Shown piece after piece: positions 25,581-63,098 of a DNA stretch of 64,000 bases (the stretch's first letter is position 1; each line of letters starts with the position of its first letter). The stretch is from the human T2T-CHM13v2.0 reference genome, Homo sapiens, in assembly GCF_009914755.1 (NCBI RefSeq), contig NC_060925.1. One strand, written 5' to 3'. The notes under the pieces were generated by a model. The model was not told the DNA's origin and searched no databases. It saw only the letters and a program-made list of their open reading frames with translations. A program made the translations under genes and the position numbers.

Positions 25581-25775
25581 TTTTTTTTTGCCTCAGGCTC
25601 CCAAGAAGCTGGGATTACAGGTGCGTGCCACCATTCACAACTAATTTTTGCATTTTTAATAGATACGAAGTTTCTCCATGTTTGCCAGGTTGGTCTCAAA
25701 CACCTCACCTGAAGTGATCCTCCTGCCTTGGCCTCCCAAAGTGCTGGGATTATAGGCATGAACCATTGTGTCCAA
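25581..25775 (-). mobile_element. Partial Alu
   Basis: Left arm plus part of right arm; 3' part deleted. Confidence 0.8.
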
Positions 25776-26624: not shown

Positions 26625-27275
<651 letters not shown>

Positions 27276-31215: not shown

Positions 31216-31421
31216 CTGGACAGAACCAATGTACTTCTTACATATATTGATTGATTGATGTCACATGTCTCCCTAAAATGCAGAAAACCAAGCTGTGCCC
31301 CAACCACCTCGCGTACATGTCATCAGGACTTCCTGAGGCTGTGTCACAGGTGCACATCCTCAATCTTGGCAAAATAAACTTTCTAAATTAACTGAGACTT
31401 GTCTCAAATTTGGGGGGTTCA
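31216..31421 (+). mobile_element. 3' half of a MER4A-like ERV1 LTR
   Basis: gaaccaatgtacttcttacatatattgattgatg...ggcaaaataaactttctaaattaactgagac...ggggttca. Confidence 0.8.
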
Positions 31422-32493
31422 TAGTCCTAAAGTCATTATCTTATTTAATGGAAAAGCATTAGGGATGTTTCTACTAACATCAGAAGCAAGACATAAATAT
31501 CTATTATCTCTGCTGCTGTTAGAGATATTAGCCAGTGCAATTAGATAAGAGAAATCAGTGAAAGGCATAAGAGTGACTAAATGAGTGGTAAAACTATATT
31601 TGCAGATGATATAATAATGTATGTGGAAAATCCCAGAGAATCAATAATAAAACTAACTCAAACAATAAAATAATTTACTGAAGAACACGGATATAAAATT
31701 AACATAAAAATCAATAGCCTTCATACAAACAAACAGGGGACATAATGGTAGAGAAAACACCATTTAAATAGCATCAAAATATATGTATTTATGAATAAAT
31801 ATAAGTATTTATGAATAAATTTAATGAGGTATGAAAACCTATGCATGGAAAATGTCAAAACACTCCTAACAGACAGTAATAAAAACTTGAATAAAAGGAA
31901 AGACATTCCCAGGTTCTTGGATAGAATTATAGCTTTATGAAAATACCACTTCCCCCTAAGTTAATTTATAAATGTAATACAATTCCATCAAAATATGAAC
32001 AGGCTATTTTCTGGAGTTAGAGATTTTGATACTAAAGTTCATATAAAAAAAAAGATGGGTAGGAATGAGGTGGAAAACACTGAAAAAGAAAAGCTGTAGT
32101 GATTAGGCTTACCAGAAATTAAAACATTTGATAAAGCCTGGATAATTAAAACAGAGTGGTACTGGAGCACAGAGAAATAAAGAAGCCAGTGGAAGAGAAT
32201 AGTCCAGAATTAGACCAAAATACATATGGAAATTTAGTATATGACGAAAGTGGCATCTCAAATCACTAGGGTAAAACATACCATATAGCAGTATAAACTC
32301 CAAGTGGATTAGTGATGTAAATATAAAAACTAAAACCACATAGTATAGAAAATAAATGGCTACATTATTATTTAGCCTTGGTAAGAAAAAGCCTTTCTAA
32401 CTATGATTTAAAATCCAGCGGCAATTTTTTAAAAGATTAATAAATTTGACTGCATTTTTTTGTGTGATGAAAACCACCATAAACAAAATCAAA
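31422..32493 (+). mobile_element. Old L1M ORF2 (RT to C-terminal region) fragment
   Basis: tttgcagatgatata...gaaaatccc (FADD motif region) through aaaccaccataaacaaaatcaaa. Confidence 0.75.
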
Positions 32494-32560
32494 GAACTAT
32501 GATCATACCACTGCACTCCAGCCTGGAAGACGCAGTGAGACCCCATCTCTAAAAAAGTTT
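32494..32560 (+). mobile_element. Decapitated Alu 3' end (~65 bp)
   Basis: gaactatgatcataccactgcactccagcctgg...gtgagaccccatctctaaaaaa with no upstream Alu body. Confidence 0.8.
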
Positions 32561-32569
32561 TTTAAAAAA

Positions 32570-38510
<5,941 letters not shown>

Positions 38511-38770
38511 AGGATAACTAGACATTGAAACCAACACAAATGACCAGCCTGAAGAAGGAAGTCAGCTGGAGCTGGAGTGAGGGGAACTCGTCAGGTGGGC
38601 TGAAGGTGGAAAAACAGAAGAGATTTGATAGAATCTGGACAGTGAGAGTTTGGAGTGATAACCAGATAAAAAGACTCCAAAGAAAGTTCCTCTCCCTGCC
38701 AGTTCACAATTCTATAATTCCAGCCATGCACTCCTAACCACTGTCAAAGTTTTCTTGTGCTCCTTCCTGA

Positions 38771-39150
<380 letters not shown>

Positions 39151-39452
39151 ACTCTATACTACTTTTATAATTAAGAAAAAACAAGAAAAATAGTTTTAGC
39201 TGGAACAAAGAAAACAAACAAATCACAGAGACAAGGTTCATAAGAGAGAATTCCAAACGATGTGCCCAAGCTCCTATGAGGACTTTAGCAACAAGAAAAG
39301 GAACATGAGGGTGATTGTCCCGTCCTCTGCCTTCCTGACCACTGTCAGGGCTGGCCCACCCTCTGGGGATGCAGAGTGTGGATCCAGAGATCTCATGGGT
39401 GGAAGCCACTCTCACAGCTCTCAGGGAGCCCCCGACAGCCAAGGGGACGTAC

Positions 39453-39683
39453 CTCGGAGTTGGCAGGCACCACAAACTGGGAGGGCAGGGCGATGTCGGG
39501 CATCTGGCATTCTGTGGAGAAGGTCACCGAGTAGGGCAGAGGGTTCTCCAACTTGATGGAGGCTGACGCAACTTGCCGGACTGGGGTCACCATCTCGATG
39601 GTTTTGATGATGCCTGAAGGGATGACCCTGAAACTCACATTGTAGTACAAGAACTCATTTGTCACCTCGTTTCGGAAGATCAC
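39453..39683 (-). CDS. HYDIN2: Last HYDIN-like exon present (231 nt): VIFRNEVTNEFLYYNVSFRVIPSGIIKTIEMVTPVRQVASASIKLENPLPYSVTFSTECQMPDIALPSQFVVPANSE
   Basis: Acceptor tgcag|GTG, donor GAG|gtacgt; within ORF 39393..39689. Confidence 0.93.
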
Positions 39684-40024
39684 CTGCATTCACGGGGAGA
39701 GAGGGAGGAAGGAGGGAAGAGTAGGGGTGAGCCGAGGGTCCTCTGCACATTTTCAGAGCCTCCTTCTCTTTTTTAGCATTGTTTGGCACATGAAGCACAG
39801 GTACCAGGCTGACAGGACGCTCGCAGCCTATCCGGATCCCTGCCAGCCAGACTTTCTAGTTAGGGATTCCGGCTCCTCCCAGATGAGAGATTATTAAATA
39901 GCCTGGGCTTGCTTTAGAAGAGGCTAGATAGAGCAGGACTGTCCAACGCCAGCACTTCCCTGGTGGGGACAGCTGGCCGGCTCTGGAAAACAAGCGAGAC
40001 CTCTGAGGTAACTTTCAACGGTCT

Positions 40025-40091
40025 TTCTTTTCCTTCCTTCCTTCCTTCCTTCCTTCCTTCCTTCCCTCCCTCCCTCCCTCCCTCCTCCTCT

Positions 40092-40143
<52 letters not shown>

Positions 40144-40468
40144 TTTCTTTCTTTCTTTCTTTTTCTTTCTTTCTTTCTTTCTTTCTTGAGAAGGAGTCTC
40201 ACTCTGTTACCCAGGCTGGAGTGCAATGGCATGACTCGGCTCACTGCAACTCCCACCTTCCGGGTTCAAGTGATTCTCCTGCATCAGCCTCACAAGTAGC
40301 TGGGATTACAGGCGCCTGCCACCATGCCTGGCTAATTTTTGCAGTTTTAGTAGAGACGGGGTTTCATCATGTTGGCCAGGCTGGTCCTGAACTCCTGACC
40401 TCGAGTGATCTGTCCGTGTTGGCCTCCCAAAGTGCTAGGATTATAGGTGTGAGCCACAGTGCCTGGCC
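40025..40468 (-). mobile_element. AluS whose tail has expanded into a compound (GAAA)n/(GGGA)n/(GGAA)n microsatellite (40025-40186)
   Basis: Alu 40185-40468; degenerate TSD caacggtctttc / caatgggctttc. Confidence 0.88.
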
Positions 40469-41022
40469 ACAATGGGCTTTCTTCCTATTCCTGTTGCTGC
40501 TGGGATAGTTTAAAAACAACAATAGCATCTGACACTTAATTAATGATTACTGTATGCCAGGCAATAAATAGAAATGCTTAATTAGTTAATTCACACAATT
40601 CGTAGGCACTGTTATTATGCCACTTAACCTTTTAAAATTCAATTTAATTTAATTTAATTTAATTTAATTTTTATTTTGTAAAGATGAGGGAACTGAGGCT
40701 TCGCAAACTCAAGTATCTTGCCCAAGGTCACACATAAAGAAGAGTCAGGACCAAGATTTGAACCCAGGTTAGACTGACTCCAGAGCTCACACTTGTAACG
40801 ACACTATACTGTCCCTTCACCCCTGCAACGGACTTCTTGTGCTGCTCACCTCTTTAAGTTCTTTTCCCTGGTGACTGATAATGTTCAGCATCTTCTCGTG
40901 TTTTTATTGGTCATTCACATAGCTGCTTTTATGCAATAGGGTCTATTCAAGTGGTTTGTCCTTTGTAACACATTGGGTTGTTTTATCTTATTATTATTAG
41001 GTGTTAATAGTTCTTTATATAG

Positions 41023-42299
<1,277 letters not shown>

Positions 42300-43254
42300 T
42301 GACAATGGATGCTTCCTGGTCCCTACCTCACACTTAATAATAACCTTGCCTTAGCATCACTTCATTTGCCTGTCCACCCCATCTTTTGTGCTTTTGTTAT
42401 CATATCTTTTATTTCTATATACATAAGAACATCCACCTTAGAATGTTATTATATTTGTTATAAACTGTCAGTAATCTTTTAAGAAATCCAAAAAAAAACC
42501 CTCCAAATATATATTTTGCATTTCCCTAGGTATTGACCATTTCTAGAGCCCCTCTTTTCTTCTTGCAGACTGGAGTTCCCATCTGGTATCATTTCCCTTC
42601 AGACTGAAGAAGATCTATTAACATGTTTTGCAGTAATGTAAATCTGCTGACAATGAATGTTCTCAGATTCTTTTATATGAAAATGTCTATTTCACTCTCA
42701 GTTTTAAAGGACATTTTTAGTGGATAAAGAATTTTTAGATGGACTGTTTCCTTTCCTTTCATCGCTTTACAGATAGCTTCCATTATTTCCTAGGTGAAGC
42801 CAGAACTCTAGGATAGCCATTGTTATCGCTGTCCCTCTTGCTGTAATATGTATTTTTTCCCCCTGGCTGCTTTAAGCTTTTCTCTTTATCTTTGTTTTTT
42901 GGCAGTTTGAAAATGAAACGATGCCTGATGTGTACAGGCATAGTTTTCTTTGTATTTCTCCTGCTTGAAGTTTGCCAAGTTTCTTGGATCTATAGTTTTT
43001 TTTAAAAAACTAATTTTTTAAAAAATATCCAATTAGGAAAATTTCAGTAATTATTTTTTCAAATACAGCTACACCTCCATTGATTGCACTTCACTTTATT
43101 GTACATTGCGGATATTGCATTTTTAAAAATAAATTGAAGGTTTGTGACAACCCTCTGTTGAACAAGTCTATTAGTACCATTTTTCCAACAGCATGTGCTC
43201 ACTTTGTATCTCCATGTCACATTTAGGTAATTCATATTTGAACATTTTCCATTA

Positions 43255-43385
43255 TTTTTATTTTTCATAAATATGGGGTCTGACTGTGTTTCCCAGGCTG
43301 GTCTTGAACTCCTGACTTCAAGCAATTCTCCTGCCTTGGTCTCTCAAAGTGTTGGGATTATGGGCATGAGCCACCATGCCTTGTT
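43255..43385 (-). mobile_element. FLAM-type Alu monomer nested in Tigger1
   Basis: Single left-arm monomer. Confidence 0.75.
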
Positions 43386-43439
43386 GTTTCATTTTTTTGG
43401 TATCTGTTATGATGATATGTGATCAGTGATTTTGGATAT

Positions 43440-43799
43440 TGATATAGCTTGGCTTTGTGTCCCCACCCAAATCTCATCTTGAATTGTAATCCCCACATGT
43501 CAAGGGAGAGACCTGGTGGGAGGTGATTGGATCATGGGGGTGATTTCCCCCATGCTGTTCTCATGACAGTGAGTGAGTTCTCAGGACATCTGATGGTTTT
43601 ATAAGGGGCTCTTTCTGTTTGCTCACCACTCTCTCTTGCCTGCCACCATGTGAGATGTGCCTCTTCCCCTTTTGTCATGATTGTAAGTCTCCTGAGGCCT
43701 CCCCAGCCCTGTGGAACTGTGAGTTAATTAAACCTCTTTTCTTTAGAAATTACCCAGTCTTTGGTATGCTTTATAGCACTGTGAAAATGGACTAATACA
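43440..43799 (+). mobile_element. THE1/MST (MaLR) solo LTR nested in Tigger1
   Basis: tgatatagcttggctttgtgtccccacccaaatctcatc...attaaacctc...gaaaatggactaataca; degenerate 5-bp TSD gatat/aatgt. Confidence 0.9.
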
Positions 43800-46700
43800 A
43801 ATGTTACTATTGTAATTGTTTTGGGGTGCTATAAACTGTGCCATACAAGATGGTGAACTTAATCAGTAAATGTTGTGTGTGTTTGGACTGCTCCACTGCC
43901 TGCCTATTCCCTCATCTCTATCCCTTCCTCGGGCCTCCCTATTCCTTGAGACATAACAACATTGAAATTAGGCAAATTAATAACCCTATAATGGCATCTA
44001 AGTTAAAGTGAAAGGAAGTGTCACGTGGCTCTCACATTAAGTCAAAAGCTAGAAATGATTAAGCTTAGTGAGGAAGACATGTCAAAACCCGAGGTAGGCA
44101 GAAATCTAGGCCTCGTGCACCAAACACTTAGCCAAATGAAGAATGCAAAGGAAAAGTTCTTAAAGGAAATTAAAAGAGCTACTCCAGTGAACTCACCAAT
44201 AATAATTATATAATAAGAATTATTGCTGATATGGATAAAGCATTAGTGGTCTGGATAGAAAATCAAACGAGTTATAGCATTCCCTTAAGCCAAAGCCTAA
44301 TCCAGAACAAGGATCTAACTCTCTTGAATTCTATGAAGGCTGAAGAAGTAAGGAAACTGAAGAAAAAAGTTTGAAGCCAGCAGATGTTGGTTCATAAGGT
44401 TTACGTAAAGAAGCTGTTGCCATAACATAAAAATATAAGGTGAAGCAGCAGGTGCTGACGTAGATGCTGCAGCAAGTTATCCAAAAGATCTAGCTAAGAT
44501 AATTGTTAAAGGTAGCTACACTGAACGACAGATTTTCAATGCAGATAAGCCAGCTTTCTATTGGAAGATGTCATTTAGGACTTTCATAGCTAGAGAAGAG
44601 AAATCAATGCCTGGCTTCAAAGTTTCAAAGGACAGGCTGACTCTTGTTCAGGGCAAATGCACCTGGTGACTTTCAGTTGAAGCCAATGCTCACTGACTAT
44701 TCTGAAAATCTTAAGGCCTTTAAGAATTATGTTAAATCTACTCTGCCTATGCTCTAGAAATGGAACAACAAATCCTGGATGACAGCCCATCTGATTTCTA
44801 ATTACAGGGTGGCTTACTGAATATTTTAAGCCCACTGTTGAGACCTACTGCTCAGAAAATAGATTCCTTTCAAAATATTACTTCTCTTTAATAATGCACC
44901 TGGACACCCAGGAGCTCTGATGGAACTGTACAGGAGATGAATGTTGTTTTCATGCCTGCTAACACAACATCTATTCTGCAGCCCACAGATGAAGGAGTCA
45001 TTTTGACTTTCAAGTCTTGTTATTTAAGAAATACATTTCATAGGGCAATAGTTGCCATAGATAATGATTCTTCTGATGGGTCTGGGCAAGGTAAACTGAA
45101 AACCTTCTGGAAAGGATTTGCCATTCTAGATGCCATTAAGAACATCTGTGATTCACTGGAGAAGGTCAAACCCTCATGTATGCCTTTGAGGAGTTCAAGA
45201 CTTCAGTAACTTGAAAAGTAGAGGAAGTAACTGTAGATGTAGCAGAAATAGCAAGAGAACTAGAATTAGAGGTGGAGCTTGAAGATATGACTGAATTGCT
45301 ACAATCTCATTATAAAACTTGAATGAATGTTGAGTTGCTTCTTATGGATGAGCAAAGGAAGTGGTTTCTCAAGATGGGATTTATTCATGGTGAAGATGCC
45401 ATGAACATTGTTGAAATGACAACAAAGGATTTAGAATATTCACAAACTTAATTGATAAAGCAGCAGCAGGATTTGAGAGGACTGACTCCGATTTTGAAAG
45501 AAGTTATATTGTGGGTAAAATGCTTTCAAACAGCATCACATGTTACAGAGTAATTTTTCTTGAAAGGAAGAGTTAATTTATATGGCAAATTTCATTGTTG
45601 TCTAATTTTAGGAAATTGCCACAGTCACCCCCACCTTCAGTAACCACCACCCTGATCAGTCAGCAGCCATCAACATCGAGGCAAGACCCTCCACCAGCAT
45701 AAAGATTATGACTCGCTGAAGGCTCAGATGATCATTAGGATTTTTAAGCAAATAAGTAATTTATAATTCAGGTATGCACGTTACTTTTAAAGACCTAATG
45801 TTATTGTACACTTAATAGACTACAGTACAATGTAAACATAACCTTTATATGTACCAGGAAACAAAAAATATTGTGACTCACTTTATTGCATTATTAGCTT
45901 TGTCATGGTGGCCTGGAACCAAACCCACAGTACTTCTGAGGTATGTCTGTAATTTAATTTTCTGCCTCATTCACATTCTCTCTCATTCTCTTCTTCCCAG
46001 AGAATGTTATGTTATGTTTAGAACAGTTGCTGTGAAGTCTGCCTGCTAAATCCAACATCTGGCCCGTCTTGGAGTCAGTTTCCATTGACTGCTTTTTTTT
46101 CTTGACTATGGATCCCATTTTTCTGCTTCTCCACAGGTCTAGTAATTTTTATTTGTCTACTGGACAATGCTGATGATCATTGTAGAGATTCTGGATTCTG
46201 TTGTCTTCCTTTTAACAGTGTTGATTTTGTTGTAGGAGGTAGTTGAATCACTGACTTAAATTTGTGTGGGTTTGGTTTTATGCTTTGTTAGAGCACATCC
46301 GTGTAAAGCTCAAGGTATTTATCAGGACCTTCTGACTTGCTGGGATTCAATCTCCAGATTTTGTCCTCCCTGTAGAACTTGCAGGTGCTTAGTTGTAGGC
46401 TTTTTTAAAGGGCTGATAAAGAGAAGGCCTTATACTAAGGGAATGGCCCTTTCTCCTAAGTCTTTCTTCTGGCTTTTCTAGTATTTTAGCTGGGTTCTCA
46501 GGATTTTAATGAGGTATTAATGCAATCTCTTTCCTTTGGCTGGGCCAGACCTCTAATGTTCCCCAGCACTGATTAACACATAGTATTGCTATTCCTTTAT
46601 CAACCACATAGCAGCTGCTCCCTGGTAAATCTCATGTTGTCTCACCCTGCACATGTGCAACTCTTAGCCAAGGATAGTGAAGGGAACGCTCATGCTGTCT

Positions 46701-47475: not shown

Positions 47476-48003
47476 TTTTTTTTTTTTTTGAGACAGGATC
47501 TTGCTCTGTTGCCCAGGCTGGAGTGCAGTGGTGTGATCTCGGCTCACTGCAACCTCTGCCTCCTGGGTTCAAGCAATTCTCTTGCCTCAATATGGGGTTT
47601 CACCATGTTGGCTAGGCTGGTCTTGAACTCCTAACCTCAAGTGATCCACCCACCTCAGCCTCCCAAAGTGCTGGAATTACAGGCATGAGCCACTGCACAT
47701 GGCTCACTTACTTATTTTTTAAGCTTTGCTAATTCAGAAAGTTTTAATTTTGTATTTATTTTCAGATAGAATTTGTGCGTATGGGTGGGTTACTTTTTTT
47801 TTTCTTTTTTTGGAGACACAGTTTTGTTCTGTTGCCCAGGTGGAGTGCAGTGGTGTCACCTCAGCTCACTGCAACCTCAATCTCCTGGGCTCAATCAGTC
47901 CTCCTACCTCAGCCTCCTGAGTAGCTGAGACTATAGGCACGTGCCAGCCCACCTTGGCCTCCCAAAGTGTTGGGATTACAGACGTGAGCCACTGTGCCTG
48001 GCC
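47476..48003 (-). mobile_element. Two internally deleted antisense Alus (47476-47705, 47795-48003)
   Basis: Alu ends present, central segments missing. Confidence 0.8.
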
Positions 48004-48469
48004 CTGGGTCAGTTACTTTGAGTCCTTGCATGTCCAAGTTTTGCTGTCATAAGAGTTTTGTCTGGAAAAAGAGTTCTAGACTGACAATCATTCTCACTCT
48101 GAAATTTGGATAGCTTATTCCATTATCTTCTGGTATTTGGTGTTGCCACAAGAAGTCTTATGTTACCATGATTATTAGTTCCTTTTATTTCCTCTAGAAT
48201 CATTTAGGACTTTCTCTTTCATCCCGGTTTTCTGAAACGTTGCTCTAATGTATTTAGATGTGAGTATTTTTTTCATTCACCCTGTTTGGCAACTTGATGG
48301 ACCCATTCGATTAGAAGACTTGATCTTCTTAAAAAGCCCTGGAAATATTTCTTCAGTTATTTTGTTGAATACTTTCTTCCTTCCAGTATCTTGTTTCTCT
48401 TTCAGGAGCTCCTATTACATATATATTAGAACTTCTTGATTTATACATTGTCTCATATTTCCTTTCATT

Positions 48470-49185
48470 CTGTTTTTGAAACAGCTTTATTGAGATATAA
48501 CTCACATACCATACAATCCCTCATTTAAAGTGTTCTATTTAGTGGTTTGTAGTATATTCACAAGGCAGCGTAGCCATCACCACAATAAACTTTAGAACAT
48601 TTTCATAATCCCTAAAACCCTATAACCATTAAGTCACTCCCCTTTTCCCCAACCCATCCTCTCCAGCCCTTGGTACCATGAATCAACTTTCTGTTTCTGT
48701 AGATTGGCTTATTCTTCAAATTTCATACACCCGGAGTCATACAATATGTGAATGGCTTCTTTCACCTATATTTCAAAGCATACATTCACTTTCATTTCAA
48801 ATCATACATTTGTTACTGGCTTCATTCACTTAGCATAATGTTTTATAGCAGGTATCAATATTTTATTTCCATTTCTTTTTATTGTCAAATTCCATTCTAT
48901 TTATACACTTACCAGTTCATCGAAATTTGGGTTGTCTCTACGTTTTGGCTCTTATAAATAATGCTGCTATGAATATTTGTGTATAGATTTTTGTGTGCAC
49001 ATATGTTTTCATTTCTCTAGGGTATTACCTAGGAGTTAAATTGGTGAATCATATGGTAACTCTACGTTTAACCATTTGAGGAACTGCCAGACTGTTTTCC
49101 AGGGCAGCTGCACCATGTTATACTCCCACCTGCAGTGTATGAGGGTCCCAATTTCTCCACATCCTTGCTGATGCTTGTTATTATT
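48470..49185 (-). mobile_element. L1MB-type 3' end
   Basis: acagctttattgagatataactcacataccataca...; gaggaactgccagactgttttcc. Confidence 0.85.
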
Positions 49186-49649
49186 TCATTTCATTCCATT
49201 TCTTTGTCCTCAAGGGCTAAGGTCTGGTGATATTACTCAGCTCCATCTTGTAACTTATTAGTAATCTCCATTATAAAGTCCATCCCTCCTGCATGGTTTT
49301 CTAAATATTTTATTTTTCATTTCTAGAGTCTCTAATTGGTTCTTTTTCACAATAGCTTATCCTTATTTCATGAGTATGATTTTCTCCCTTTGGGGATATA
49401 AATAATATTCACTTAAAGTTTTCTGTTTGCTTTAATAACTCTTTCTTTTCAGAGGTGATTTACTCATTTATTGAGTAGGTATTTCTATTTTATGGTAACT
49501 TTTTTTAGATGTTTCATGATGTCTTGTTTTGAGGTTCTCTTAAAATCTTGTCTGTCTGTGAATGCTGATCTGATGAGATGTGATTGGAGCATCCTACTCA
49601 GTTATTGTAGAAAAGGAGATCTCACACTGCTGGATGCGTCTTGCCAGCA

Positions 49650-49690
<41 letters not shown>
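49650..49690. repeat. (CT)n(GT)n compound microsatellite
   Basis: Direct observation. Confidence 0.9.
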
Positions 49691-50194
49691 TCCTAGATAC
49701 TTTCTTTTTTTCTTTTTCTTTTTACTTTAAAATGTTTCCCCAAGTGATTCTATCCCACATCTTAGCTCCAAATGCTATCTATAAATGAAAAATTCCCAAA
49801 TGTTATCTTTAGTCCCGACCTCTCCCATGAGCTACAGATCCACACATGCTCCTTTTCTTCAAAGCACTTATCTCATTTTGTAATTATACATCCATAGTGC
49901 AATTATTTGAGCAATGCCCATCTCTCTCCACTAGACTGTGTGTTCTGTGAGAACAGAGATTGTGCCTATTCAGGTCGCTGATGTGTTACCAGCAATCAGT
50001 ATAGTACATGGCATATGTGCTCAATAGATACTTGTTAAACCACTGAATGAATGAGGTGAAACAACTCATGTGTGAGAGACCCTGTGATGTCTTGGAGCAG
50101 TGACTATGGGGGCCATCTTTACTTGCTAACACCAGGATCAAACTCAGGGTCAAATGTCCTGAGTTCCAGGGTGGTGCCTTTGCTATGTAGATAC

Positions 50195-50345
50195 CTTTGC
50201 AGCGTACGTTCCCTCCTTGTGGGAAAAGAAGTTCAGCTTGTAGTCTTTCTTAGAGCCAGACAGTACATCAATGTAATCAAGGCCCTTCATAGTGATGCTT
50301 AGGTCCGGCTTCTCTGGTTTCAGTATTTCCACGATGACCCGGAAT
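50195..50345 (-). CDS. HYDIN2: HYDIN-like exon (151 nt): (R)FRVIVEILKPEKPDLSITMKGLDYIDVLSGSKKDYKLNFFSHKEGTYAAK
   Basis: Acceptor ccccag|A, donor AAG|gtatct; manual translation; phase 2/0 fits both neighbours. Confidence 0.92.
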
Positions 50346-51199
50346 CTGGGGCAGCATAGGAGAACACAAGAGGGGAGAGGAAATGAGACCGTTAACCCAT
50401 AGGAAAAAAGGAGAAGTGCCAGCTGTACTCTTGATTTTATGGGAAGTGCATGGCTCCAGGGTTCTAGTCTTCACCCTGTCACTAACAATAATGGGAACTG
50501 CCATTTACTGGCCACCTATTATGTGCCAGGGACTGAGTGAGTGGCCTGTGTGTTACAGGCATTAATCCTTGCAGTATCTGTAGGAGGTATTAATACATAT
50601 CACTATCATGTCCACATCACTAAATACAGGCCAAGAGAAGGAAGATAAGATGCTCCAAGAGAAGGAAGGTAAGATGACTGGTTACTGGCAGAACCAGGAT
50701 TCAAATTTAGGTCAGGCCTTTACCCACTATGCTAAGCAGGAAGCCTTCAGTACATTGTGCCTGGTCTCCCAGTCTAGAGTTCCTTCTCTGTAAAAGAAGG
50801 GGACCATGCTTGTTGGCCTTGAGCTTTCCTGGTGCCCGATTTCCACTCTGCTCCTACTGCAAGGACAAGATCCAAGGACTTGCTTCTCTGGCCAGTGGCT
50901 TAGGTGATAAGACAGAACACTCAGCAATAACAGTGGTAATTATCATTATGATAATAACGGCTAACATTTATCGAATGGTTATTTTGTGCCAGGAAACTTA
51001 CAAGTAACTAAGCACAGAAAAGAGAATCTCGCTAGAGGCTTAGTGTTCAGGAAATGCCTGGTCACATCAGGGAACTTTGTCTCTAACTCCTCGAGCCCCT
51101 CAACATCCTCTAGAGGTCCTAAGTAGGGGAAGGACCAGGCTAGATGGTGAAAGTCCTCCTTTCATCTCCCCACCCAGCCCCCTAGCCCCACCCCCTTAC

Positions 51200-51363
51200 C
51201 TCTGGGGCTTGTTCAGCCAGTTGGTGATTGGCAGAAGCTCAGTGTAGGGGGTCTTACATGGCACTTCACGATAGATATTGGCTACAGCTTTGGGGAGCTC
51301 AGAAGTCCCATGCAGAGCATACAGCCAGCCGGTCCCATCTGGGAGGGGGAAGAAGAGGGTGCC
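51200..51363 (-). CDS. HYDIN2: HYDIN-like exon (164 nt): GTLFFPLPDGTGWLYALHGTSELPKAVANIYREVPCKTPYTELLPITNWLNKPQ+AG
   Basis: Acceptor tccttag|GGC, donor AG|gtaagg; manual translation. Confidence 0.92.
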
Positions 51364-52168
51364 CTAAGGAGAAGAAGGATGTGATCAGAATGACACACAG
51401 CATTCTTTACTAGGTACTTATTGGACATGTAGAGACCCAGGATTAATGGAGGATAATGGAGGCTCTGGAAAGAAACATAATACTTTTGAAGACATCTTGG
51501 TGATATAGTTCAGGAGATAGAAAAATGTTCATATGTATCCGAGCCAGGAATCCTATCCCAGAGAGCCTATTGAAGAAAAATCCCTCCAAAGAAAAAAGTT
51601 ATGCATATATATAAGAACCAGTTATAATGTTGATGAAAATTTGTAGATAAACATTCAACAAATGGGACTGTAAAACAAATTGTGGAATTCTCATTCAGTG
51701 AAATATTGGGCAGTTATTAAAAAATAATTATCATAAAGACCGCATAGTTAAATAGAAAAATGCTACTGCTATACCGTAAAGTGAAAACAAACTGAATGTA
51801 AAATTGGGTATGTTATGATGATAGTTATGGCTGTATCTGAATAAGGATTGGTAGTGAAGATAGAAAAGAAAAGTTCATTTTTTAATAGGGTGGAATATTG
51901 TGGCCACTTTTTTTTTGTTTTGTTACAGTCACCATTATGTTATTTATGCAATTAAGTGAAACATTAATTACTTGATGCTTGGTCTGGACTCCATTTCAGA
52001 ACTGAGCCCCTGGCTCTACGAGAATCCCTGTACATTAAAATAAAAAATGAAAAAAGGAAGCCAAAGCTTGATAATCTGCACAATTCCCAAATCCTCACTA
52101 TTCCAACATGATCTGGGTGTTCCCCATCTAACATTCTCTGAGCTCTCAGCTTCCAAAGTGTTTTTTAA

Positions 52169-52481
<313 letters not shown>

Positions 52482-52552
52482 TAACCTCATTCACATAGTG
52501 CCACCTTCAACTATGCCAGGAAACCAATGGGGGTGGGGGGACCTCAGCCTAC

Positions 52553-52765
52553 CTGGTGCTTGCGGTTCTCCAAGTTCATGGTGCGGGGCCTGTAGGTGAT
52601 CTCATAGGGCTTGTTTTGCTGGTGGGCCTCCAGGGTGATGAACTCAGGCCCCTCCCAGTGCTCGCCCTCAAAGATGGGGTGCAGATTCCAGGTCTGGTTG
52701 GTGCGGTTTGACAGCAGGATGGTCTGCGTGTGCTTGGAGCGCACCTGGCACATGAAATTCACTAC
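52553..52765 (-). CDS. HYDIN2: HYDIN-like exon (213 nt): VVNFMCQVRSKHTQTILLSNRTNQTWNLHPIFEGEHWEGPEFITLEAHQQNKPYEITYRPRTMNLENRKHQ
   Basis: Acceptor ttccag|GTA, donor CAG|gtaggc; within ORF 52544..52912. Confidence 0.93.
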
Positions 52766-52904
52766 CTGGAAGAAAGCAGGCACCTCATCTTCCATGGCAC
52801 TTCCCCCTGGTCCGTCTCCAGGGCCAGAAGTACAGAACGTGCGCTGGGGAAGACTGACTTTGTCAGTGCTTCCCATCATGAGTTTCAGTGGGTCCATTTC
52901 TTTT

Positions 52905-54660
52905 TCTTTCATTCACTCAACACATACTTACGGGTACCTTCTATGTGCTAGGCACTGTTCTTGGTGGTAGAGATGTAGCAATGAACGAAATAACAAAAAT
53001 CTCTGCCCTTGAGCTGAGATTCTAGTAGAGGGAGACAGACACACAAGTGGAATGTAGAGCGTGCAGGATAGAAATAAGTGCCAAGGGGAAAGACAAAGTA
53101 GAAGGGGTGCCAGATTGGGAGTGGGTTTGAGTTTTTACACAGTGTGATCAGGAAGGGCCTAACTGAGCATATGTATTTGATTAAAGACCAAGAAGGATGA
53201 AGTAGGGGAGACCTGGGGAAGAGCCTGAGTGAGCCTGAGTGTAACTGGCAGAGGAAATGCCAGTTACAAAGCTCCTGGTTTTGACAAAAGGCAGGCAGGC
53301 CAGTGTGGCAAATGTGAAGTGAGTGAGGGGGAGATAAAGTGACAGGGGACAGCACGCAGGGTCTTGGAGTCATGGTAGACACTTTTTTTTTTTTTTTTTT
53401 AGTTGAAAAAGGAGGACTTACGAGTATTTTGAGTAGAGTGACCTGATCGGATCTATGCTCTAACAGAACTGCTCTAGATGCTTAGAGGTGACAGAGGAAG
53501 AGAGATTAACTAGAAGACACTTGCAATAGGCCAGGTGGGGGATGACGGTGGCTTAGGTGGCACTGGTAGCACTGGGGATGGTGGAAAGTGGGTATATTCC
53601 AGTTGTACTTGGAAGAGCCAATAGCATTTACTTCTGTATGGTATGTTGGGTATAGGTGGAAGAAGGCTCAAGAATGACACCCAAGTTTTTAGTCTGAGCA
53701 ATGAGCAGAATGGAGATGCCCTTTACTGATGTGGGATTGACTGTGGGAGGAGCAGGTTTCAGTGAGAGATCGGGAGCTCAGGTTTCATACATGTTAAATT
53801 TGAGATGCCTATTCGTCAAGCAGGAAGTAGAATTTACAAATCTGGGGTTCAAGGGAAGAGTCCAGGCTGCAGATAAAGATTTGGGAGTTGTCAGTATAGC
53901 AATTTCATTGTTGTTATTACTGTTGTTGTTTTGTAGAGATAGGGTCTCACTATGTTGCCCACGCTGGTCTTGAACTCCTGAGCTCAAGCGATCCTCCTGC
54001 TTCAGCCTCCCAAAGTGCTGGGATTACAGGCACGAGCTACTGTGTCCAGCCTAACAGTGTTTTTTTTTTTTAGGCCAAGAAACTGGCTGAAATCAACAAG
54101 AAATGATGGTATGTAGAAGAAAGAAGGAATCTAAGGACTAGTTCTTGACTGACAAACTCCAATGTTAAGAAGAATCAGAAGGCCAGGCTTGGTGGCTCAT
54201 GCCTGAAATCCCAGCACTTTGGGAGGCCAAGTTGAGTGGATTACCTGAGGTCAGGAGTTTGAGACCAACCCGGCCAACATGGCAAAACCCTGTCTCTACT
54301 AAAAATATAAAAATTAGCTAGGCATGATGGTGGGGGCCTGTAATTCCAGCTACTTAAGAGCTGAGTTAGGAGAATTGCTTGAATCTGGGAGGCAGAGGTT
54401 GCAGTGAGCCGAGATCATGCCACTGCACTCCAGCCTGGGGAACACAGTGAGACTCTGTCTCAGAAAAAAAACAAAAAAACAAAAAAAAAAAAAAAACAAG
54501 AAACAAACAGAAGATGAGAAGGAGAAGCCGGTGAGTAGGAAGAAACCCAGGAGAGAGTGGTGTGCTGGAGCCAAGTGAAGGAAGTGTTTGCAGGAGGAGG
54601 AACGGGTTTATGGTGTCAAATGCTCCCTATAGTTAAAGAAAGAACTGGCTATTGGATTGG
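52905..54660 (-). mobile_element. L2 LINE interrupted by a FLAM (53905-54052 -) and an AluS (54181-54510 +)
   Basis: ttcattcactcaac...gtgctaggcactgttc L2 tail in reverse; internal L2 motifs. Confidence 0.75.
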
Positions 54661-54669
54661 TATTGGCAT

Positions 54670-55390
54670 AAAGATGGTCGAATAGATCAATAGATGAGAA
54701 CAGAACCCACATATATATGATCAATTGATTGTCATTTACAATCAATGACAAAGGTGCCAAGGCAATTCAGTAGAGAAAAGAGTCTTTTCAACAAGTGGTA
54801 CTAGAACAATTGGATATCCATGTACAAAAAATTTTTGATCCATATCTCACACTATATACAGAAATTAACTCCGAATAGACTGAAGACCTAAACACAAAAC
54901 TTATGTTCGGAGTATATAAAGAGCTCTAGAAACTTTAATAAGAAGACCAACGACCTAATTAAAAATAAACAGAAGACTTGAACAGACACTTTAACTAAGA
55001 CAATACAGGGCTGGCAAATAAGTACTCGAAAAGTTGCTTAACATCATTAGTCATTAGGAAAATAAAGCCTCCATGAGATACCTCTACATACTGATTAGAA
55101 TGGCTGAAATTTAAAACAACTGACTATCAACTGTTGATGAGGATGTGAAGTAAGTGGAGATGTCAGACATTGCTGGTGGCATTGTAAAAGGACACAACCA
55201 CTTTGGAAAATAGTTTGGCAGTTTCTTACAAAGGTAAACATACGCCTACCACATGACCCAGCCATTCCACAACTAGGTATTTATCCAAGAGAAATGAAAG
55301 CATATGTTCCTGCTGAGACTTATAAATACAAGTTCATAGCATACTGTATGATTCCATTCATATAACATTCTTTAACAAAATTATAGACAG
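54670..55390 (+). mobile_element. Old L1M 3' fragment
   Basis: gacaaaggtgccaaggcaattca, ggaaaatagtttggcagtttctt, ctaggtatttatccaagagaaatgaaa. Confidence 0.8.
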
Positions 55391-55800
55391 GGAGATTGGG
55401 TGTCATTTCTACCACAAGCAGTGTTGCTAGGTAACACAGCTGATGGTTCAGTTAGGTTCCCAGGAACAAGGCTAGCAGAGGGATATACCAAGGCCATTTT
55501 TTTTTAAACCATAGAAAAGGAGAAAGGTGTTAATGCTTTAATCATAGATCTTAGAATGTGATCTAGCCAGGGATGTCAAAGCAGGCTTCCTTGAGAATGT
55601 AATGTTTCAGATGAGAGCTGAAGAATGGAAAGGAATAAACCAAATGAAGAGGGGAGAATGAATATTCCAGCAGTGGAAACGGTGTATTCACAGGCCTCGT
55701 GGAGGGAGGGGGCAGGCCTGCATGTTTGAAGGAGGCCTGGCTGAGTTCACTTGCTGGGGTCACTCCTGCCACTGGGCCACCCCGGGCAGCAGCTACTAAC

Positions 55801-56020
55801 CTCTTTTACTGCAGGTGGTCCCACGCAGACTCCAGACAGGGTTAGACTCAGAGGACTGCCTCCCTGGATGTAGCAGAGAATTTTTTTACAAAGGCTCTCC
55901 TTTCCCACCTCGGTGGGATGGTAGGTCACTTCAAAAGAAACCTCCATGCCTGAGGTAATATAGCCTTCTTCTGGGCTAATGGAGAAATGAGGCTCAAATT
56001 TTTTGATGTCCCATTTAAAC
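55801..56020 (-). CDS. HYDIN2: HYDIN-like exon (220 nt): (R)FKWDIKKFEPHFSISPEEGYITSGMEVSFEVTYHPTEVGKESLCKKILCYIQGGSPLSLTLSGVCVGPPAVKE
   Basis: Acceptor ...cttggaaaag|G (AAG-type), donor GAG|gttagt; within ORF 55747..56034. Confidence 0.92.
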
Positions 56021-56840
56021 CTTTTCCAAGACAAAAGAAGACAAGAAAGAGAGTTTATGGATGTTGTAAGGGTGTCCTCAATGCTACTGAGAACAAGAGA
56101 CTGCCTGGGCTGAGGTTCACCTCCCTTGAGTCTATCCTAGCACCTAGGAGGAGAAAGATCTCTGCCAGACAGAGCAGAAGCACTGGGGAATGTGGGCCAA
56201 GGTCACTTCCTGGGTAGGTGGACTTGGCTCCTTTGCAGAGCTGAGCCAAGGGCAGGAAGTGGCTGCATCTTATTATCCACGAGTGACACATCAGGGAACA
56301 TATGTATGAACACACATACACATGTGTCGTGTACTTAAGGTCACACAGCTAGGAAGTGGCTGGGCTAGGACAGAAATCCTTCTGGGACTGTGGTCTTAAC
56401 TGTTCCCTGCACTGCTTCTTGGTTCAGATCCTGGGGGATGGCGACAATCCCTTCCTGTGAGAGTTGCCTCTGTTCTGGGTGGCACTGGTATCCCATGGCC
56501 CTGTGTGGTCCTCCCTCTGTGGTTGGGCACTCGCTTATCTGTGAAATGGGTTGGTAGCAGTCTTGGTCTCATAGAACTGTAGTTGGATTAAATGATGTGT
56601 GCCATGTCAAGGCAGGAAACAGGCATGGACTAAATATCTTCTGTTATCTCAACTGTAGTAATCATAGTAGCAGCAATCACCCCAGTGAGGCCACTGCTGT
56701 CACATCTTGAGGGAAGCAGGGGGATGTAGAAGGGAGAGGACAGAAGTAAAAAGTGATTGCACTTGCAGAACAAGTCCAGGGCAGATACAGGGACAGCAGC
56801 CTCTGGGGCAGCCTCAGGGTGGGAGACACTGCTCCCTTAC

Positions 56841-57118
56841 CTTGCACCCACATCGCCTGTGTTCAACATGAGGATGCGACGCGTGGCTTGCGTCTGATAC
56901 ACCACGGGTCCAAAGGGAATATGTTCCTGGTCCAGTGAGATCTCCAGGGCCTGGCAGCAGCCGCTAAGGAGGAAGAGGGGGCGCAGGAGCCCCATGCATT
57001 CCATGAACACTTCCTCAGAGAAGGGAGGGACACGCTTCTTCGGGGCAAAGATGACTTCCAGTTTACAGACTTCTTTGGGCTTCAGTGTGATGTTGTGGAA
57101 GGGCGCCAGGGTGAGGAC
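56841..57118 (-). CDS. HYDIN2: HYDIN-like exon (278 nt): VLTLAPFHNITLKPKEVCKLEVIFAPKKRVPPFSEEVFMEC...RILMLNTGDVGA+AG
   Basis: Acceptor ttcag|GTC, donor AG|gtaagg; ASH-domain-like 'NTGDVGA' motif; within ORF 56837..57223. Confidence 0.94.
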
Positions 57119-57521
57119 CTGAATGAAATAGCACCCAGAGTCAGCAGCTGAGGGTGGGAGGCCCCTAAGGCCTCGGTTCCCGGAGTTCTTGCTGCTGCGA
57201 TTGGAACAGGGGTCAGATCTCACTCCTGCTCTCCCATCAGCTGTGTATGCTTTGGTAAATTACTTCAACTTTCTGTGACTTACTCTATGTTGAAGATTAA
57301 GATCATCTCTATAAAATTTGTAGCACATAATAGATATTTAATAAGTATCATTTCCCTTTCCTGACCCTTTCCTAACTTATTTTGTGTACTTCCTTCTTTC
57401 TTCCTCCTCCCTGATACAGGAAATAGTAACGGGAAATAACAAACACTTAGAGCTCTGGCATTTCTCAAGGAGTGTTCCCTGCCTCAGTTTCCCTGTGTGG
57501 TTTTTAAAATGCAGATTCCAG

Positions 57522-58163
<642 letters not shown>

Positions 58164-58542
58164 AGGAATGTATCTTAAGCACAGAGTCATGCATGCACAA
58201 AGGCTTAAGGAGAAACACCTGAAATGAACGAAAATAGAGAACTGGGCTGTCTACACAACGGAGATGTAAATAAACAAATGACAATGAATGACATGGAAAA
58301 TGAAATGAAAATGCAAAATGAAAATATTGTTCGTTTTCACAAAAACAGTATGGGACTAGTGCACCCTGTAAAGCCCTATACTGTTTTTGTGAAAATGAAC
58401 AGAGGGAGCACAGGGAAGGCTCTTAGAATGGTCTGGCACATTACAGATGCACAAGAAATGTGAGCTGCTAGTGTTGCCAGCATGGCCATCCTCATCATCA
58501 GGGAGCATGAAGGGGCCGCTAGGAGCCCCTCTGAGCACCAAC

Positions 58543-58701
58543 CTTGGGTTCCTGGAGTTCTGGAATTGTGAACAGAATGGACTGATTAAATGTGAGCTGG
58601 GCCAGGCTGTTGTTCATGATGGAAACTGTTCTTTTCACAACCTGCCCTGGTAGGACAGCTCCCAACTTCACAATCCTGTTGGCTGGATCTAGGACTAAAA
58701 T
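58543..58701 (-). CDS. HYDIN2: HYDIN-like exon (159 nt): ILVLDPANRIVKLGAVLPGQVVKRTVSIMNNSLAQLTFNQSILFTIPELQEPK
   Basis: Acceptor cacag|ATT, donor AAG|gttggt; manual translation (not in the ORF track). Confidence 0.92.
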
Positions 58702-60557
58702 CTGTGGGACAAGAAAGAGTAGGAAGAAGAGTTCATTAGTTAAAGGGAAAAATAAACATTATATGTCTACTCTGGTGAGGCAAGGGTGGTTCCTTCTCTT
58801 TCTGTGCCCTCACTTCTTCATATTGGGTGGACATCTGCCTACTCAATAAGCATTTAAGTGCCTCAAGTGCCCACTGAACTCCTCATCACACAATTATACA
58901 AGTACAACTGGGTCAAAATATATGTAGGAAAATCTCAGGGCACCTTGAGAGCATATTACATGGGGCTGAAACTAGGCTAGGGGGCTCAGGGGGCCTTTCC
59001 AAAGATGGCATGTATACATCAAGAGCTAAAGAAAGGTATGGGCTAGTCAGTTTCAGCCAGAGTGAGTGTGGAATTGGGGAACAACCTAAGGCAGGGAGAC
59101 AACCTGTGGCCAGGCCCTGAGCCAGAGGGAGTGGCCCAGTGAAGGCCTGAGGCTGGGAGCTAGGACTTGAGAAGATGACTTCAGAGAGGTGGCCAGGTCT
59201 TGCAAGGCCTTTTAGGCCATTGCTGAGTGAGAAGTGGGAGAACTGGGCTTCATTCTGGGAGCAATGGGAAGTCAGTGAAGTATGGAGTGTTTGTGAGAGA
59301 GCTCTGGCTTCTTTACGGAGAATGGGCTTGAAGAGGGCAAGAAAGAAGGCAGGAGGGAGAGATGATGGTGGTTGGATTAGAACAGTGGCAGTAGAGGCAG
59401 AGAAAAGTAGTTATGCTTCCAAGTCCTCAGGTAAGACACTGATTAAAATGGTGCCTGGGTCAGGCCAAGGCCAGGCTGAGCCTGCTCTCCAAAATGGCAC
59501 TGACCCACAATGAGCAGCACCCACTGGTCACTGTCATGGTCAGTCACTAAATTGCACCCCTCCACCCAACTATCTTTAAACCCAGCCCACATGTTTCCAT
59601 TTTGTCTAAAAAGGCAAGAGAGTCTGTCCCACCAGTCATGAGCTCTTGGATGTCTGAGAACATGTGTAAGTCACTTCTGCATCTTCCCAAAATATCCAAT
59701 ACATAATGGGTGCTAAATGAACAAGTGAAAGACCAATAGGAAAATGAATGAATCAATGGCATCAGAAGCGACCTTGTCTCTAGCTTGGGTCCAGACACAT
59801 TAGCTGGTAATGTCCTGTTGCTCCTATGGCTTGATGGGAAGGCTGCCAGGAATACACCCCTCCCCTGGTTGCTGAAATATGCTATGCATTCCTGAAAGTC
59901 TTGGAAGGATTTTAATCTTCCAAAACCTTCTATTAAAATACAGATAATCCCACCAGACAAGCACCTTACACATTTACTAGACACAAGAAGGAAATGAATG
60001 AGCAGCAGAATATGACCATTCCCTTTCTATCCAGAGTGCCTCGGTAAAAGAAATGCCTTGAACCAAATATCATCCAGGGATCTGTGGCTGGCTGGAGAAT
60101 GCTAATCAATGGGGTGTTAAGGAAAGATGTTCCATCACTGAAACACGTGTCTGTGTACATTGCTTAAAAATGTTAAAAAAAAATGTTATCTATTAAACCT
60201 GAAAACAAACATGCCCTGATGCAGGAGGAAAAGGATATACTTGGGGTGCTGAGTCTGAAAGTCTCAAATTTCTCCAAGAAAAAGAATATTTCTCTAGTGT
60301 CTGTGATTACCTGTATCCTTTGATACAGTAAAGTTTGGTATTGAATAAGATCTATGATTCAGTGAGTCTGATCTGGTGATTTGCCCCTTTCTGTTATTAG
60401 GAACATCATCTCAGTGGGACTCGCTGACCTACAACAGAGCAGCCTGGGGCAGAGAAGCAGAGGGGCTGGAAGGGTGAAGGGGTTCTGGGGGGCAAAGAAG
60501 GATGAGAAGGGTAGAAAGGAGGGTGCCATGCCTGAAGGCCTCCCGACTGTCTGTTAC

Positions 60558-60756
60558 CTTCATTTCGGTACCCTTCCCTTTGATTTCGACTGTTTGTTGT
60601 GAGAGCCCATTGATTTCAAAGGGAATGAGTTCTTGATAGTTGATACTTTCTCGAGGATAAAAAGTTATTGGAATCTCCAATGTGTTTCCTGGCTTTACCA
60701 CATCAACACGGCAGTTCACCTCGAGGTGAGTGGTGTTGGTGTACAGACAATCTATG
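60558..60756 (-). CDS. HYDIN2: HYDIN-like exon (199 nt): (S)IDCLYTNTTHLEVNCRVDVVKPGNTLEIPITFYPRESINYQELIPFEINGLSQQTVEIKGKGTEMK
   Basis: Acceptor tctgcag|C, donor AAG|gtaaca; core of ORF 60429..60770. Confidence 0.93.
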
Positions 60757-60918
60757 CTGCAGAAAATCAAGAGGAAGAGGCGTAAGCTCCAAGAAGTCTG
60801 ACCCAGAGGGGCAGATGCTGTCTCCTTGTCTCTTTGGGCTGGACACTGATGGGTTTCCTGCCCTGCTGTCCTAGAGTCACAGAAGTCATTTAAGAGCTAG
60901 AAGGGAGCTCAGCAATGA

Positions 60919-61352
<434 letters not shown>

Positions 61353-62212
61353 TGATTTTCGATTTCTTGATAATGCAACTCATGGTTTTCTACACGAGGG
61401 TTTTGTACCCTCTCATAAGAAGGAAATGCTTCCAGAAGTAATTAGGTAACAAAGCACAGTAGGGAGGAGTATATGTTCTAGAGTCAGGCAGAGAGGAGTC
61501 TGGATCTAGGCTCCATCACTAATTACCCAAATGATCTCTGAAGAGTTATGTGGCCCACTTGGGTCTCTGTTTTCTTATCTGTAAAATGGGGGTAATGATA
61601 ACTATTTCTTAGGGCTGTTGTGAGGATTAAATGAGATTAAGTGACTGAAACAGTCATTAAATAGGGCACAGAGGAAATATTCCATAAAGTGAGCTATTAT
61701 TATTATGACTAATTGTTCAACCAGAAGGGATCTTAAAAGATCATGTCCACCCTACTCCACATGTGGGTAGGAAGGCACCTAGGCCTTTTCATTACAACCT
61801 CTCCTTCTCTGCCTTACAGTCTGTAGAGAAGGAGTCTAGCTAGGCCAACATATAGAGCTCAATGCCTTAAGCAAAGTAAGACTGAGATTACATTAAATCA
61901 TGCAAGAAGTATAGATAGATAAGATTTAAAATTAGTATTTAAAATTACATGACACACTTATAATTTAATATTCAGGGTACTAATAATAATCATAACAGCA
62001 GCAGCAGCAGCTAACAATAACTGGGCATTTCTTATGTTCCAGGCAGTGTTCTAAGCACTGTTCCTAGGTGAACTAATGTAATCATCCTAATAGTCTTATA
62101 TAGATGGTATTATTATGACTACCATTTCAGGCAAGGAGACAGAGGCATAGAGAGTTTTAAAAATTTGCCCAAGGTCACACAACTAGGGAAGAGTTGAAAT
62201 TTGAACTTAGAT

Positions 62213-62408
62213 CTGTGCTAGCTAATATGGTGGCCACTAGACACATGTGGTTATTAAAATTAAAATTAACATTAATTAAAATAAAATAAAAAATCAGTTC
62301 TTTAGTTTCGCTAGCCACATTTTAAGTGCTCTGAAGCCACATTCAGCTATAGGCCACCATATTGGACAATGCAAAAATACAACATTTTCATCATGATGGA
62401 AAGTTCTC
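62213..62408. mobile_element. MER3-like hAT DNA transposon
   Basis: ctgtgctagctaatatggtggccactag...ccatattggacaatgca...atggaaagttct. Confidence 0.75.
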
Positions 62409-62928
62409 TAAAGTACTGATAGATAGCTTTGAGTAAACACAGGTCTTTGGGCCAGCCCTTGGAGATTCTATCTCATTAGGTCTTGAATGGGGCTCAGAAC
62501 CTTGGACTAGAACATCCCACAGAGGGATGGTGCCAAGAGGCTGGATTTGAATCAGAAAGCTTAGGCTCAGTACAGGTCTGCTATTTACTGCAAAGCCACT
62601 GGCCTGAGAAATTTACCTTTTAACTCTTCAAACCTCAGTTTCCAAGTCTATTGCACGACAAGATAAATGGAAGTCATAAAACCTCTCATTAGGTCCTTTG
62701 GCATTGCTCTACATACTTCACAAAGAGGATTTTTAGCAGGGTAGCTCGTGGCTATCCAAGTATTAGTGTTAGTTATGGGGACAGGGACCTAGGATTCATA
62801 CCCACTTTTGTTTGACTCTTTCCCATAATCATTTTTTTTTTTTGTCTTGGCAGGGCTTCACCTGTGTGGAATCTGTAGGACCCACAAGCAGCTAGAGAAT
62901 CATTTGGAGGCTCTGGAAGCCTGCTTAC

Positions 62929-63098
62929 CTCATAGGTGTTTCTTCCTTGTTGGTAATTACCAGGGTTTGTTTGTATGGGGGCATCCCAGCTTGATAGATA
63001 AAGCAGGTCCCAAAGTTGTAGCTGGTGAAGGAGAAATGGATAGCCGGGCTCACAGCACAGCCTGAGATGTTGCACATAAATGTTGGACCATGGCTGAT
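62929..63098 (-). CDS. HYDIN2: HYDIN-like exon (170 nt): ISHGPTFMCNISGCAVSPAIHFSFTSYNFGTCFIYQAGMPPYKQTLVITNKEETPM+AG
   Basis: Acceptor cacag|ATC, donor AG|gtaagc; manual translation; phase matches the next exon. Confidence 0.92.

What the first reader, a model, noticed from the sequence alone, without database searches (positions are those of the whole stretch)
31216..63098. HYDIN exon series stops two exons short: 3' end of the incomplete duplicate HYDIN2
Seen: nine exons splice into an open 595-codon frame ending at an intact donor (GAG|gtacgt, 39452), but no continuation (GTFSFEFQPLK...; TDCTDFHAEK...stop) was found in the 39 kb downstream. Alu density doubles across the window (10 Alus left of 32.5 kb, 20 right of it). 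Established: HYDIN2 at 1q21.1 is a human-specific partial duplicate of chr16 HYDIN that lacks the first and last exons. Inference: this window spans the 3' duplication boundary.
Basis: partly seen in the sequence, partly recalled or inferred. Interest (0 to 1): 0.7.

Follow-up and report, generated by a model that had tools for sequence, protein, structure and literature searches.

The report
HYDIN2 duplication's 3′ junction (known)
This window holds the published end-point of HYDIN2, a human-specific partial copy of the cilia gene HYDIN: nine copied exons stop two exons short of the gene's end, they lie behind an earlier premature stop and are likely not translated, so the finding is real but already known.

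Summary
Observation confirmed, interpretation right, already published. Nine minus-strand exons (63098→39453) splice to 1,785 nt, 595 codons, no stop, all AG/GT, 10 substitutions from chr16 HYDIN. They cover mouse Hydin 4325–4919 of 5154. The last two exons (75+160 aa) are on chr16 and not in the window. The junction is at window 32494–32497, not 31216: chr16 sequence to the right; 1q21-paralog and 1p22.3 sequence to the left. It cuts a donor Alu with 1 bp exact microhomology, 1.37 kb short of exon 85. The far junction gives a 364.4-kb insert and 840–841 bp lost from the acceptor, as Dougherty 2017 (PMC5345166) reports. A 1-bp deletion 22 kb upstream makes an early stop, and an open frame here is expected neutrally (P≈0.74–0.86). 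The Alu doubling (10 vs 20) is real, but P=0.067. A minor extra not found in my searches: HYDIN2 keeps 1,675 bp of intron 83 that the chr16 copy lacks.

The parts
62929..63098 (-). HYDIN2 exon 76 (numbered back from the published last duplicated exon, 84); mouse Hydin 4325-4380
   Evidence: 0 differences from chr16
60558..60756 (-). exon 77; mouse 4382-4447; weak Ig-like/ASH Pfam matches below curated cut-offs
   Evidence: 2 substitutions
58543..58701 (-). exon 78
   Evidence: 0 differences
56841..57118 (-). exon 79; mouse 4501-4592
   Evidence: 3 substitutions
55801..56020 (-). exon 80; mouse 4594-4666; PF24507 Ig-like domain above cut-off
   Evidence: 2 substitutions
52553..52765 (-). exon 81; mouse 4667-4737
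   Evidence: 1 substitution
51200..51363 (-). exon 82
   Evidence: 0 differences
50195..50345 (-). exon 83
   Evidence: 0 differences
43030..44704 (.). 1,675 bp of intron 83 present here and absent from the chr16 copy in this assembly; an old dispersed repeat runs unbroken across its right edge, so the chr16 state is likely the derived deletion
39453..39683 (-). exon 84, the last duplicated exon; mouse 4843-4919; intact donor
   Evidence: 2 substitutions
32497..39452 (-). copied part of intron 84 (6,956 of 8,334 bp)
32494..32497 (.). 3' duplication junction: exact chr16 match starts at 32497, exact acceptor match ends at 32497 (1 bp exact, 3 of 4 imperfect microhomology)
32497..32560 (+). truncated Alu tail left by the donor-side break (the Alu continues on chr16); end coordinate approximate
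5975..32497 (.). acceptor block (the paper's '3' exon block'): 99.0-99.4% to the paralog at C1:146.62-146.64 Mb, 91-94% to 1p22.3 at C1:87.30-87.34 Mb
30212..31216 (+). solo LTR with many dispersed copies at 83-98% identity (family name LTR5/HERV-K recalled, from no call); shared with the 1q21 paralog, absent from 1p22.3

Best explanation
The window spans the 3' junction of HYDIN2: bases 32497-64000 are a 99%-identical copy of chr16 HYDIN exons 76-84 that ends inside intron 84 and is joined to an older chr1 duplication block, likely by a microhomology-guided, non-homologous copy-and-paste event, and these exons are likely untranslated passengers. Shown here: both junction positions, the 364.4-kb insert, the 840-841 bp acceptor loss, 1 bp and 3 bp of junction overlap with no long flanking homology at the 3' end, the missing exons 85-86, and an upstream 1-bp deletion that stops the frame four codons later. 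Inferred: the repair route (end-joining or microhomology-mediated template switching rather than unequal crossing-over). Taken from the paper, not tested: the ~3.2 Mya age, and transcripts that splice from the duplicated exons into the flanking block and on into NBPF12 without extending the ORF.
For: Exon series and absence of exons 85-86; contiguous mouse Hydin numbering 4843-4919 then 4920-4994 and 4995-5153 for the chr16-only exons; switch of homology at 32494-32497; far junction at C1:148,266,941-943 against chr16:76,979,800; 179 mismatches in about 29,700 aligned columns, 0.6%; 1-bp deletion at C1:147,954,992 with the frame ending IRSSK-stop; PMC5345166 gives 364 kbp, exons 6-84 of 86, 841-bp loss, 99.4% identity and an exon-69 1-bp deletion; PMC11369241 repeats 'exons 6-84'.
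Against: The paper puts NBPF 36 kbp from the insertion site and the 3' block at 24 kbp; here NBPF12's annotated start is 32.4 kb away and the 1p22.3-derived block is 26.5 kb. The paper places the paralog 1.1 Mb telomeric; here it is 1.28 Mb away at lower coordinates, which I read as an assembly-orientation difference without testing it. The chr16 span (357,248 bp) is 7.2 kb shorter than the chr1 insert and only 1.7 kb of that is located. The 330 kb between the window and the far junction was sampled only at 3 kb. No transcript or ape data could be examined.
Confidence: 0.97

Rival explanations
1. The downstream exons are kept open by selection and are translated as a separate C-terminal Ig-like/ASH-domain fragment from an internal start, possibly in transcripts that run on into NBPF12.
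For: 0 stops in 595 codons and 18 of 18 splice dinucleotides intact; the last donor has T at +6 where chr16 has G (T is the consensus base, recalled); 3' fusion transcripts are reported; a 2026 preprint could not recover complete isoforms, so the transcript picture is unfinished.
Against: An open frame is expected under neutrality: P(no stop) = 0.86 for 5 and 0.74 for 10 substitutions; 6 nonsynonymous of 10 does not differ from the neutral 0.71, P = 0.49. A premature stop lies upstream. The paper found no internal start site and says fusion exons do not extend ORFs, though its RACE was not exhaustive.
Confidence: 0.03
2. The exons belong to a second, unannotated HYDIN fragment separate from HYDIN2, since RefSeq's HYDIN2 ends 53 kb upstream.
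For: The hub's gene table has no row over these exons.
Against: The same acceptor block flanks both ends of one 364.4-kb insert with a single 840-bp gap; collinearity with chr16 holds 20 kb beyond the window; the own-genome search of the junction gave one chr16 match for the donor side.
Confidence: 0.01
3. The insertion arose by Alu-Alu or other homologous recombination, because the donor break lies in an Alu.
For: The chr16 side of the junction is inside an Alu.
Against: The acceptor side is not Alu-like and shares only 1 exact base with the donor at the join; no Alu hit on the acceptor side within 5 kb of the junction; the far junction overlaps by 3 bp only.
Confidence: 0.02

Closest known systems
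HYDIN2 (1q21.1), Dougherty et al. 2017, PMC5345166
   Same: The same locus: 364-kb insert, last exon 84 of 86, 841-bp acceptor loss, about 99.4% identity, flanks shared with a 1q21 paralog and 1p22.3, 1-bp upstream frameshift, NBPF12 downstream on the same strand.
   Different: Nothing essential. Details whose terms I did not find in the paper's main text: the Alu at the donor break, the microhomology, the 1,675-bp chr16-side deletion. Its Fig. 1b alignment, which I could not see, likely shows the junction bases.
HYDIN (16q22.2), axonemal central-pair protein; mouse chain 9IJJ_4G
   Same: Exons 76-84 differ at 10 of 1,785 nt and 6 of 595 aa; same splice sites.
   Different: HYDIN has exons 85-86 (235 aa) and no frameshift at the upstream site; in this assembly it lacks 1,675 bp of intron 83.
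Other truncated human-specific duplicates (SRGAP2C, ARHGAP11B; as cited in PMC5345166)
   Same: Incomplete segmental duplication of a parent gene.
   Different: There the truncated product is functional; here the 3' exons lie behind a premature stop and the paper's candidate proteins end at or before exon 39.

Membership tests
HYDIN2 duplication (1q21.1) | Last duplicated exon is 84; exons 85-86 absent | tested here: met
   the absolute numbers 84-86 come from the paper, while 'two exons missing' was tested
HYDIN2 duplication (1q21.1) | Insert about 364 kb | tested here: met
   364,447 bp between junctions
HYDIN2 duplication (1q21.1) | 841 bp lost from the acceptor at an LTR/LINE boundary | tested here: met
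   840 bp between the last and first retained bases, 841 with the shared base; a dispersed repeat begins 2-3 bp from the far junction; repeat classes recalled, not called
HYDIN2 duplication (1q21.1) | About 99.4% identity to chr16 | tested here: met
   0.6% substitutions over about 29.7 kb; exons 99.44%
HYDIN2 duplication (1q21.1) | Flanks shared with a second 1q21 copy and with 1p22.3 | tested here: met
HYDIN2 duplication (1q21.1) | 1-bp exonic deletion upstream (exon 69) giving a premature stop | tested here: met
   exon number from the paper
HYDIN2 duplication (1q21.1) | 2,095-bp exon 42 deletion and 15-bp exon 46 deletion | not tested
   outside the stretches fetched
HYDIN2 duplication (1q21.1) | Human-specific, about 3.2 Mya | not testable with these tools
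   no ape genomes held; PMC5345166 only
HYDIN2 duplication (1q21.1) | Fusion transcripts into the 3' block and NBPF12 | not testable with these tools
   no RNA data; the paper's isoform FASTA supplement was not readable
Intact HYDIN gene | Terminal coding exons with the stop codon | tested here: not met

The most novel reading that the evidence does not exclude
The 3' exons of HYDIN2 are not dead: an internal start behind the upstream frameshift makes a human-specific, C-terminally truncated string of Ig-like/ASH domains, carried on transcripts that splice from the exon-84 donor into the NBPF12 side.
Probability: 0.03. Interest if true: 0.65.

Novelty: already known. Interest (0 to 1): 0.1.

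Why it matters
HYDIN2 matters as a model of gene birth by incomplete duplication and as the reason HYDIN-related primary ciliary dyskinesia is under-diagnosed (PMC11369241, passages), but the boundary described here is published. If that difference is fixed in people it could anchor paralog-specific PCR near exons 83-84.

Tried and rejected
31216 as the breakpoint: rejected; it is the right end of an LTR shared with the 1q21 paralog, 1.28 kb left of the true join. Alu density as evidence of the boundary: direction right, P = 0.067 for all 30 elements and P = 0.20 for the 22 hits of 200 bp or more. Selection on the open frame: no signal. Polarising the 6 amino-acid differences with mouse: 2 look chr1-derived, 1 chr16-derived, 3 uninformative. 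tRNA scan: 0 genes. Rfam: 2 SRP hits, both inside Alus. Pfam on single exons: 4 of 11 queries had any match, and 1 passed a curated cut-off. Locating the 3' fusion exons: the paper's text supplement holds legends only and no primer terms; its FASTA and table images could not be read. Literature searches for HYDIN2 + 'exon 84', HYDIN + 'intron 83' and HYDIN2 + 'microhomology' each gave 0 papers; these are narrow phrase searches of open-licence papers only. Earlier scan findings were not available.

Full report
Observation. Six-frame translation showed HYDIN-like frames on the minus strand. I set nine exon boundaries at AG/GT sites: 63098-62929, 60756-60558, 58701-58543, 57118-56841, 56020-55801, 52765-52553, 51363-51200, 50345-50195 and 39683-39453. 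Spliced, they give 1,785 nt, 595 codons and no stop. Six of the nine were searched against PDB sequences, and all six matched mouse Hydin (9IJJ_4G, 5,154 aa) in order from residue 4325 to 4919.

The missing exons. On chr16 the two following exons lie at 76,621,179-76,620,955 (75 aa) and 76,619,234-76,618,755 (160 aa, then stop). They match mouse 4920-4994 and 4995-5153. Neither has a hit in the window: best tblastn E 2.1 and 2.6, against 7e-49 and 6e-106 on the chr16 control. The longest other matches of chr16 sequence beyond the break to the window (15 rows shown) are all Alu-sized repeats.

The junction. A search of the own genome with window 30000-33300 split the query at 32494-32497. The right side is identical to chr16 from 76,622,553. 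The left side is 99% identical to C1:146,616,322 onward (inverted) and 91% to C1:87,299,206 onward. Base by base, the acceptor matches exactly through 32497 and chr16 matches exactly from 32497, so there is 1 shared base, or 3 of 4 counted loosely. The donor break falls in an Alu whose tail is all that remains in the window. It copies 6,956 of the 8,334 bp of the intron and stops 1.37 kb short of the next exon. Right of the join the window is collinear with chr16 in four blocks, with 179 mismatches in about 29,700 columns. Left of it, 1-32497 maps to the 1q21 paralog and 5975-32497 to 1p22.3.

The other end. Following the uninterrupted paralog across the empty site, homology resumes at C1:148,266,941, and chr16 homology ends at 148,266,943 against chr16:76,979,800. 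That is a 3-bp overlap, judged from BLAST end points; I did not print chr16 there base by base. The insert is 364,447 bp and 840 acceptor bases are missing, 841 with the shared base.

Is the open frame meaningful? Probably not. Ten substitutions separate the paralogs (6 nonsynonymous, 4 synonymous). With a 4:1 transition weight, 3% of changes would make a stop, so no stop is expected with P = 0.86 for five changes and 0.74 for ten. The 6:4 ratio fits neutrality (P = 0.49). About 22 kb upstream of the first exon, a 3-kb comparison found 16 substitutions and one gap, a 1-bp exonic deletion at C1:147,954,992 that ends the frame four codons later. The 595 codons therefore lie behind a premature stop. 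Exons 71-75 were not examined.

Alu density. With one window Alu as query there were 10 hits left and 23 right; I merged three split pairs to get 10 and 20 elements. Binomial P = 0.067. The contrast fits two source regions but is weak evidence alone.

Mechanism. Shown: a 364-kb piece of chr16 sits between two halves of an older block, with a small acceptor deletion and 1-3 bp of overlap at the joins. Inferred: duplicative transposition finished by end-joining or microhomology-mediated template switching. Unequal crossing-over needs long homology, which is absent at the 3' join. The donor of exon 84 has lost its normal partner, so it would be free to splice to acceptors in the flank. The paper reports such fusion transcripts running into NBPF12 without extending the ORF. 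I could not locate those exons.

Comparison with print. For PMC5345166 I read the abstract, parts 1, 2, 3 and 5 of 8 of the main text, found passages, and the text of supplement 1; figures, table images and the isoform FASTA were not visible and may hold the junction bases and fusion exons. It gives 364 kbp, exons 6-84 of 86, 99.4% identity, 841 bp lost at an LTR/LINE boundary, flanks from 1p22.3 with a second 1q21 copy, the exon-69 deletion and an age of about 3.17 Mya. Its promoter 55 kbp upstream agrees with the hub's HYDIN2 5' end (window 452048) lying 55.1 kb from my far junction. PMC11369241 (passages) repeats exons 6-84. PMC13639854 (passages) could not recover complete isoforms. PMC13322076 (passages) concerns regulatory elements. 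Against a perfect fit: the paper's 36-kbp distance to NBPF and 24-kbp block are 32.4 and 26.5 kb here, and the paralog lies on the other side in this assembly.

Small additions. Window 43030-44704 (1,675 bp) has no counterpart on chr16, where the flanks join over a 3-base overlap. More than 30 of the 40 scored dispersed copies of an old repeat align at 77-82% straight through the right edge (Tigger1-like by recall). The chr1 state is therefore likely ancestral, and the parent gene lost DNA that its copy kept. The paper's padded GRCh38 donor interval implies 357,287 bp if the padding is 200 kb a side (my inference), close to 357,248 bp here, so the deletion is probably not private to this assembly. 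Searches for it found nothing, but they were narrow.

Verdict. A real feature, correctly read, already known. Interest 0.1.

Noticed in passing
window 43030-44704; chr16 76,632,938: 1,675 bp of intron 83 kept in HYDIN2 and missing from chr16 HYDIN; repeat continuity says the parent lost it. Not found.
   Followed up: partly
window 30212-31216 vs C1:87,300,475-87,316,952: A solo LTR stands where 1p22.3 has 16.5 kb of other sequence, with no target-site duplication visible, which suggests an LTR-associated deletion in the 1q21 copies.
   Followed up: partly
window 5960-5974 vs C1:146,639,953-146,649,221: The 1q21 paralog has 9.27 kb here, 4.6 kb of it 1p22.3-derived, where the window has 15 unrelated bases: a deletion with filler on the HYDIN2 side, between the junction and NBPF12.
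   Followed up: partly
window 25178-28059: 2.88 kb present in the window and at 1p22.3 but absent from the 1q21 paralog, so deleted in the paralog.
   Followed up: partly
C1:147,902,494-148,266,943 vs C16:76,622,553-76,979,800: The chr1 insert is 7.2 kb longer than the chr16 source; only 1.7 kb is accounted for.
   Followed up: no
window 39447: Exon-84 donor has T at +6 in HYDIN2 and G on chr16; direction of change unknown.
   Followed up: no
window 60566: At one exon-77 site HYDIN2 matches mouse (E) and this assembly's chr16 copy differs (K), so that change or polymorphism is on the parent.
   Followed up: partly
window 39453-63098: RefSeq's HYDIN2 model ends at window 116385, leaving these published exons without an annotation row.
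   Followed up: yes
window 33322-33438 and 52351-52467: Two Rfam SRP hits just over threshold; both are Alu arms.
   Followed up: yes
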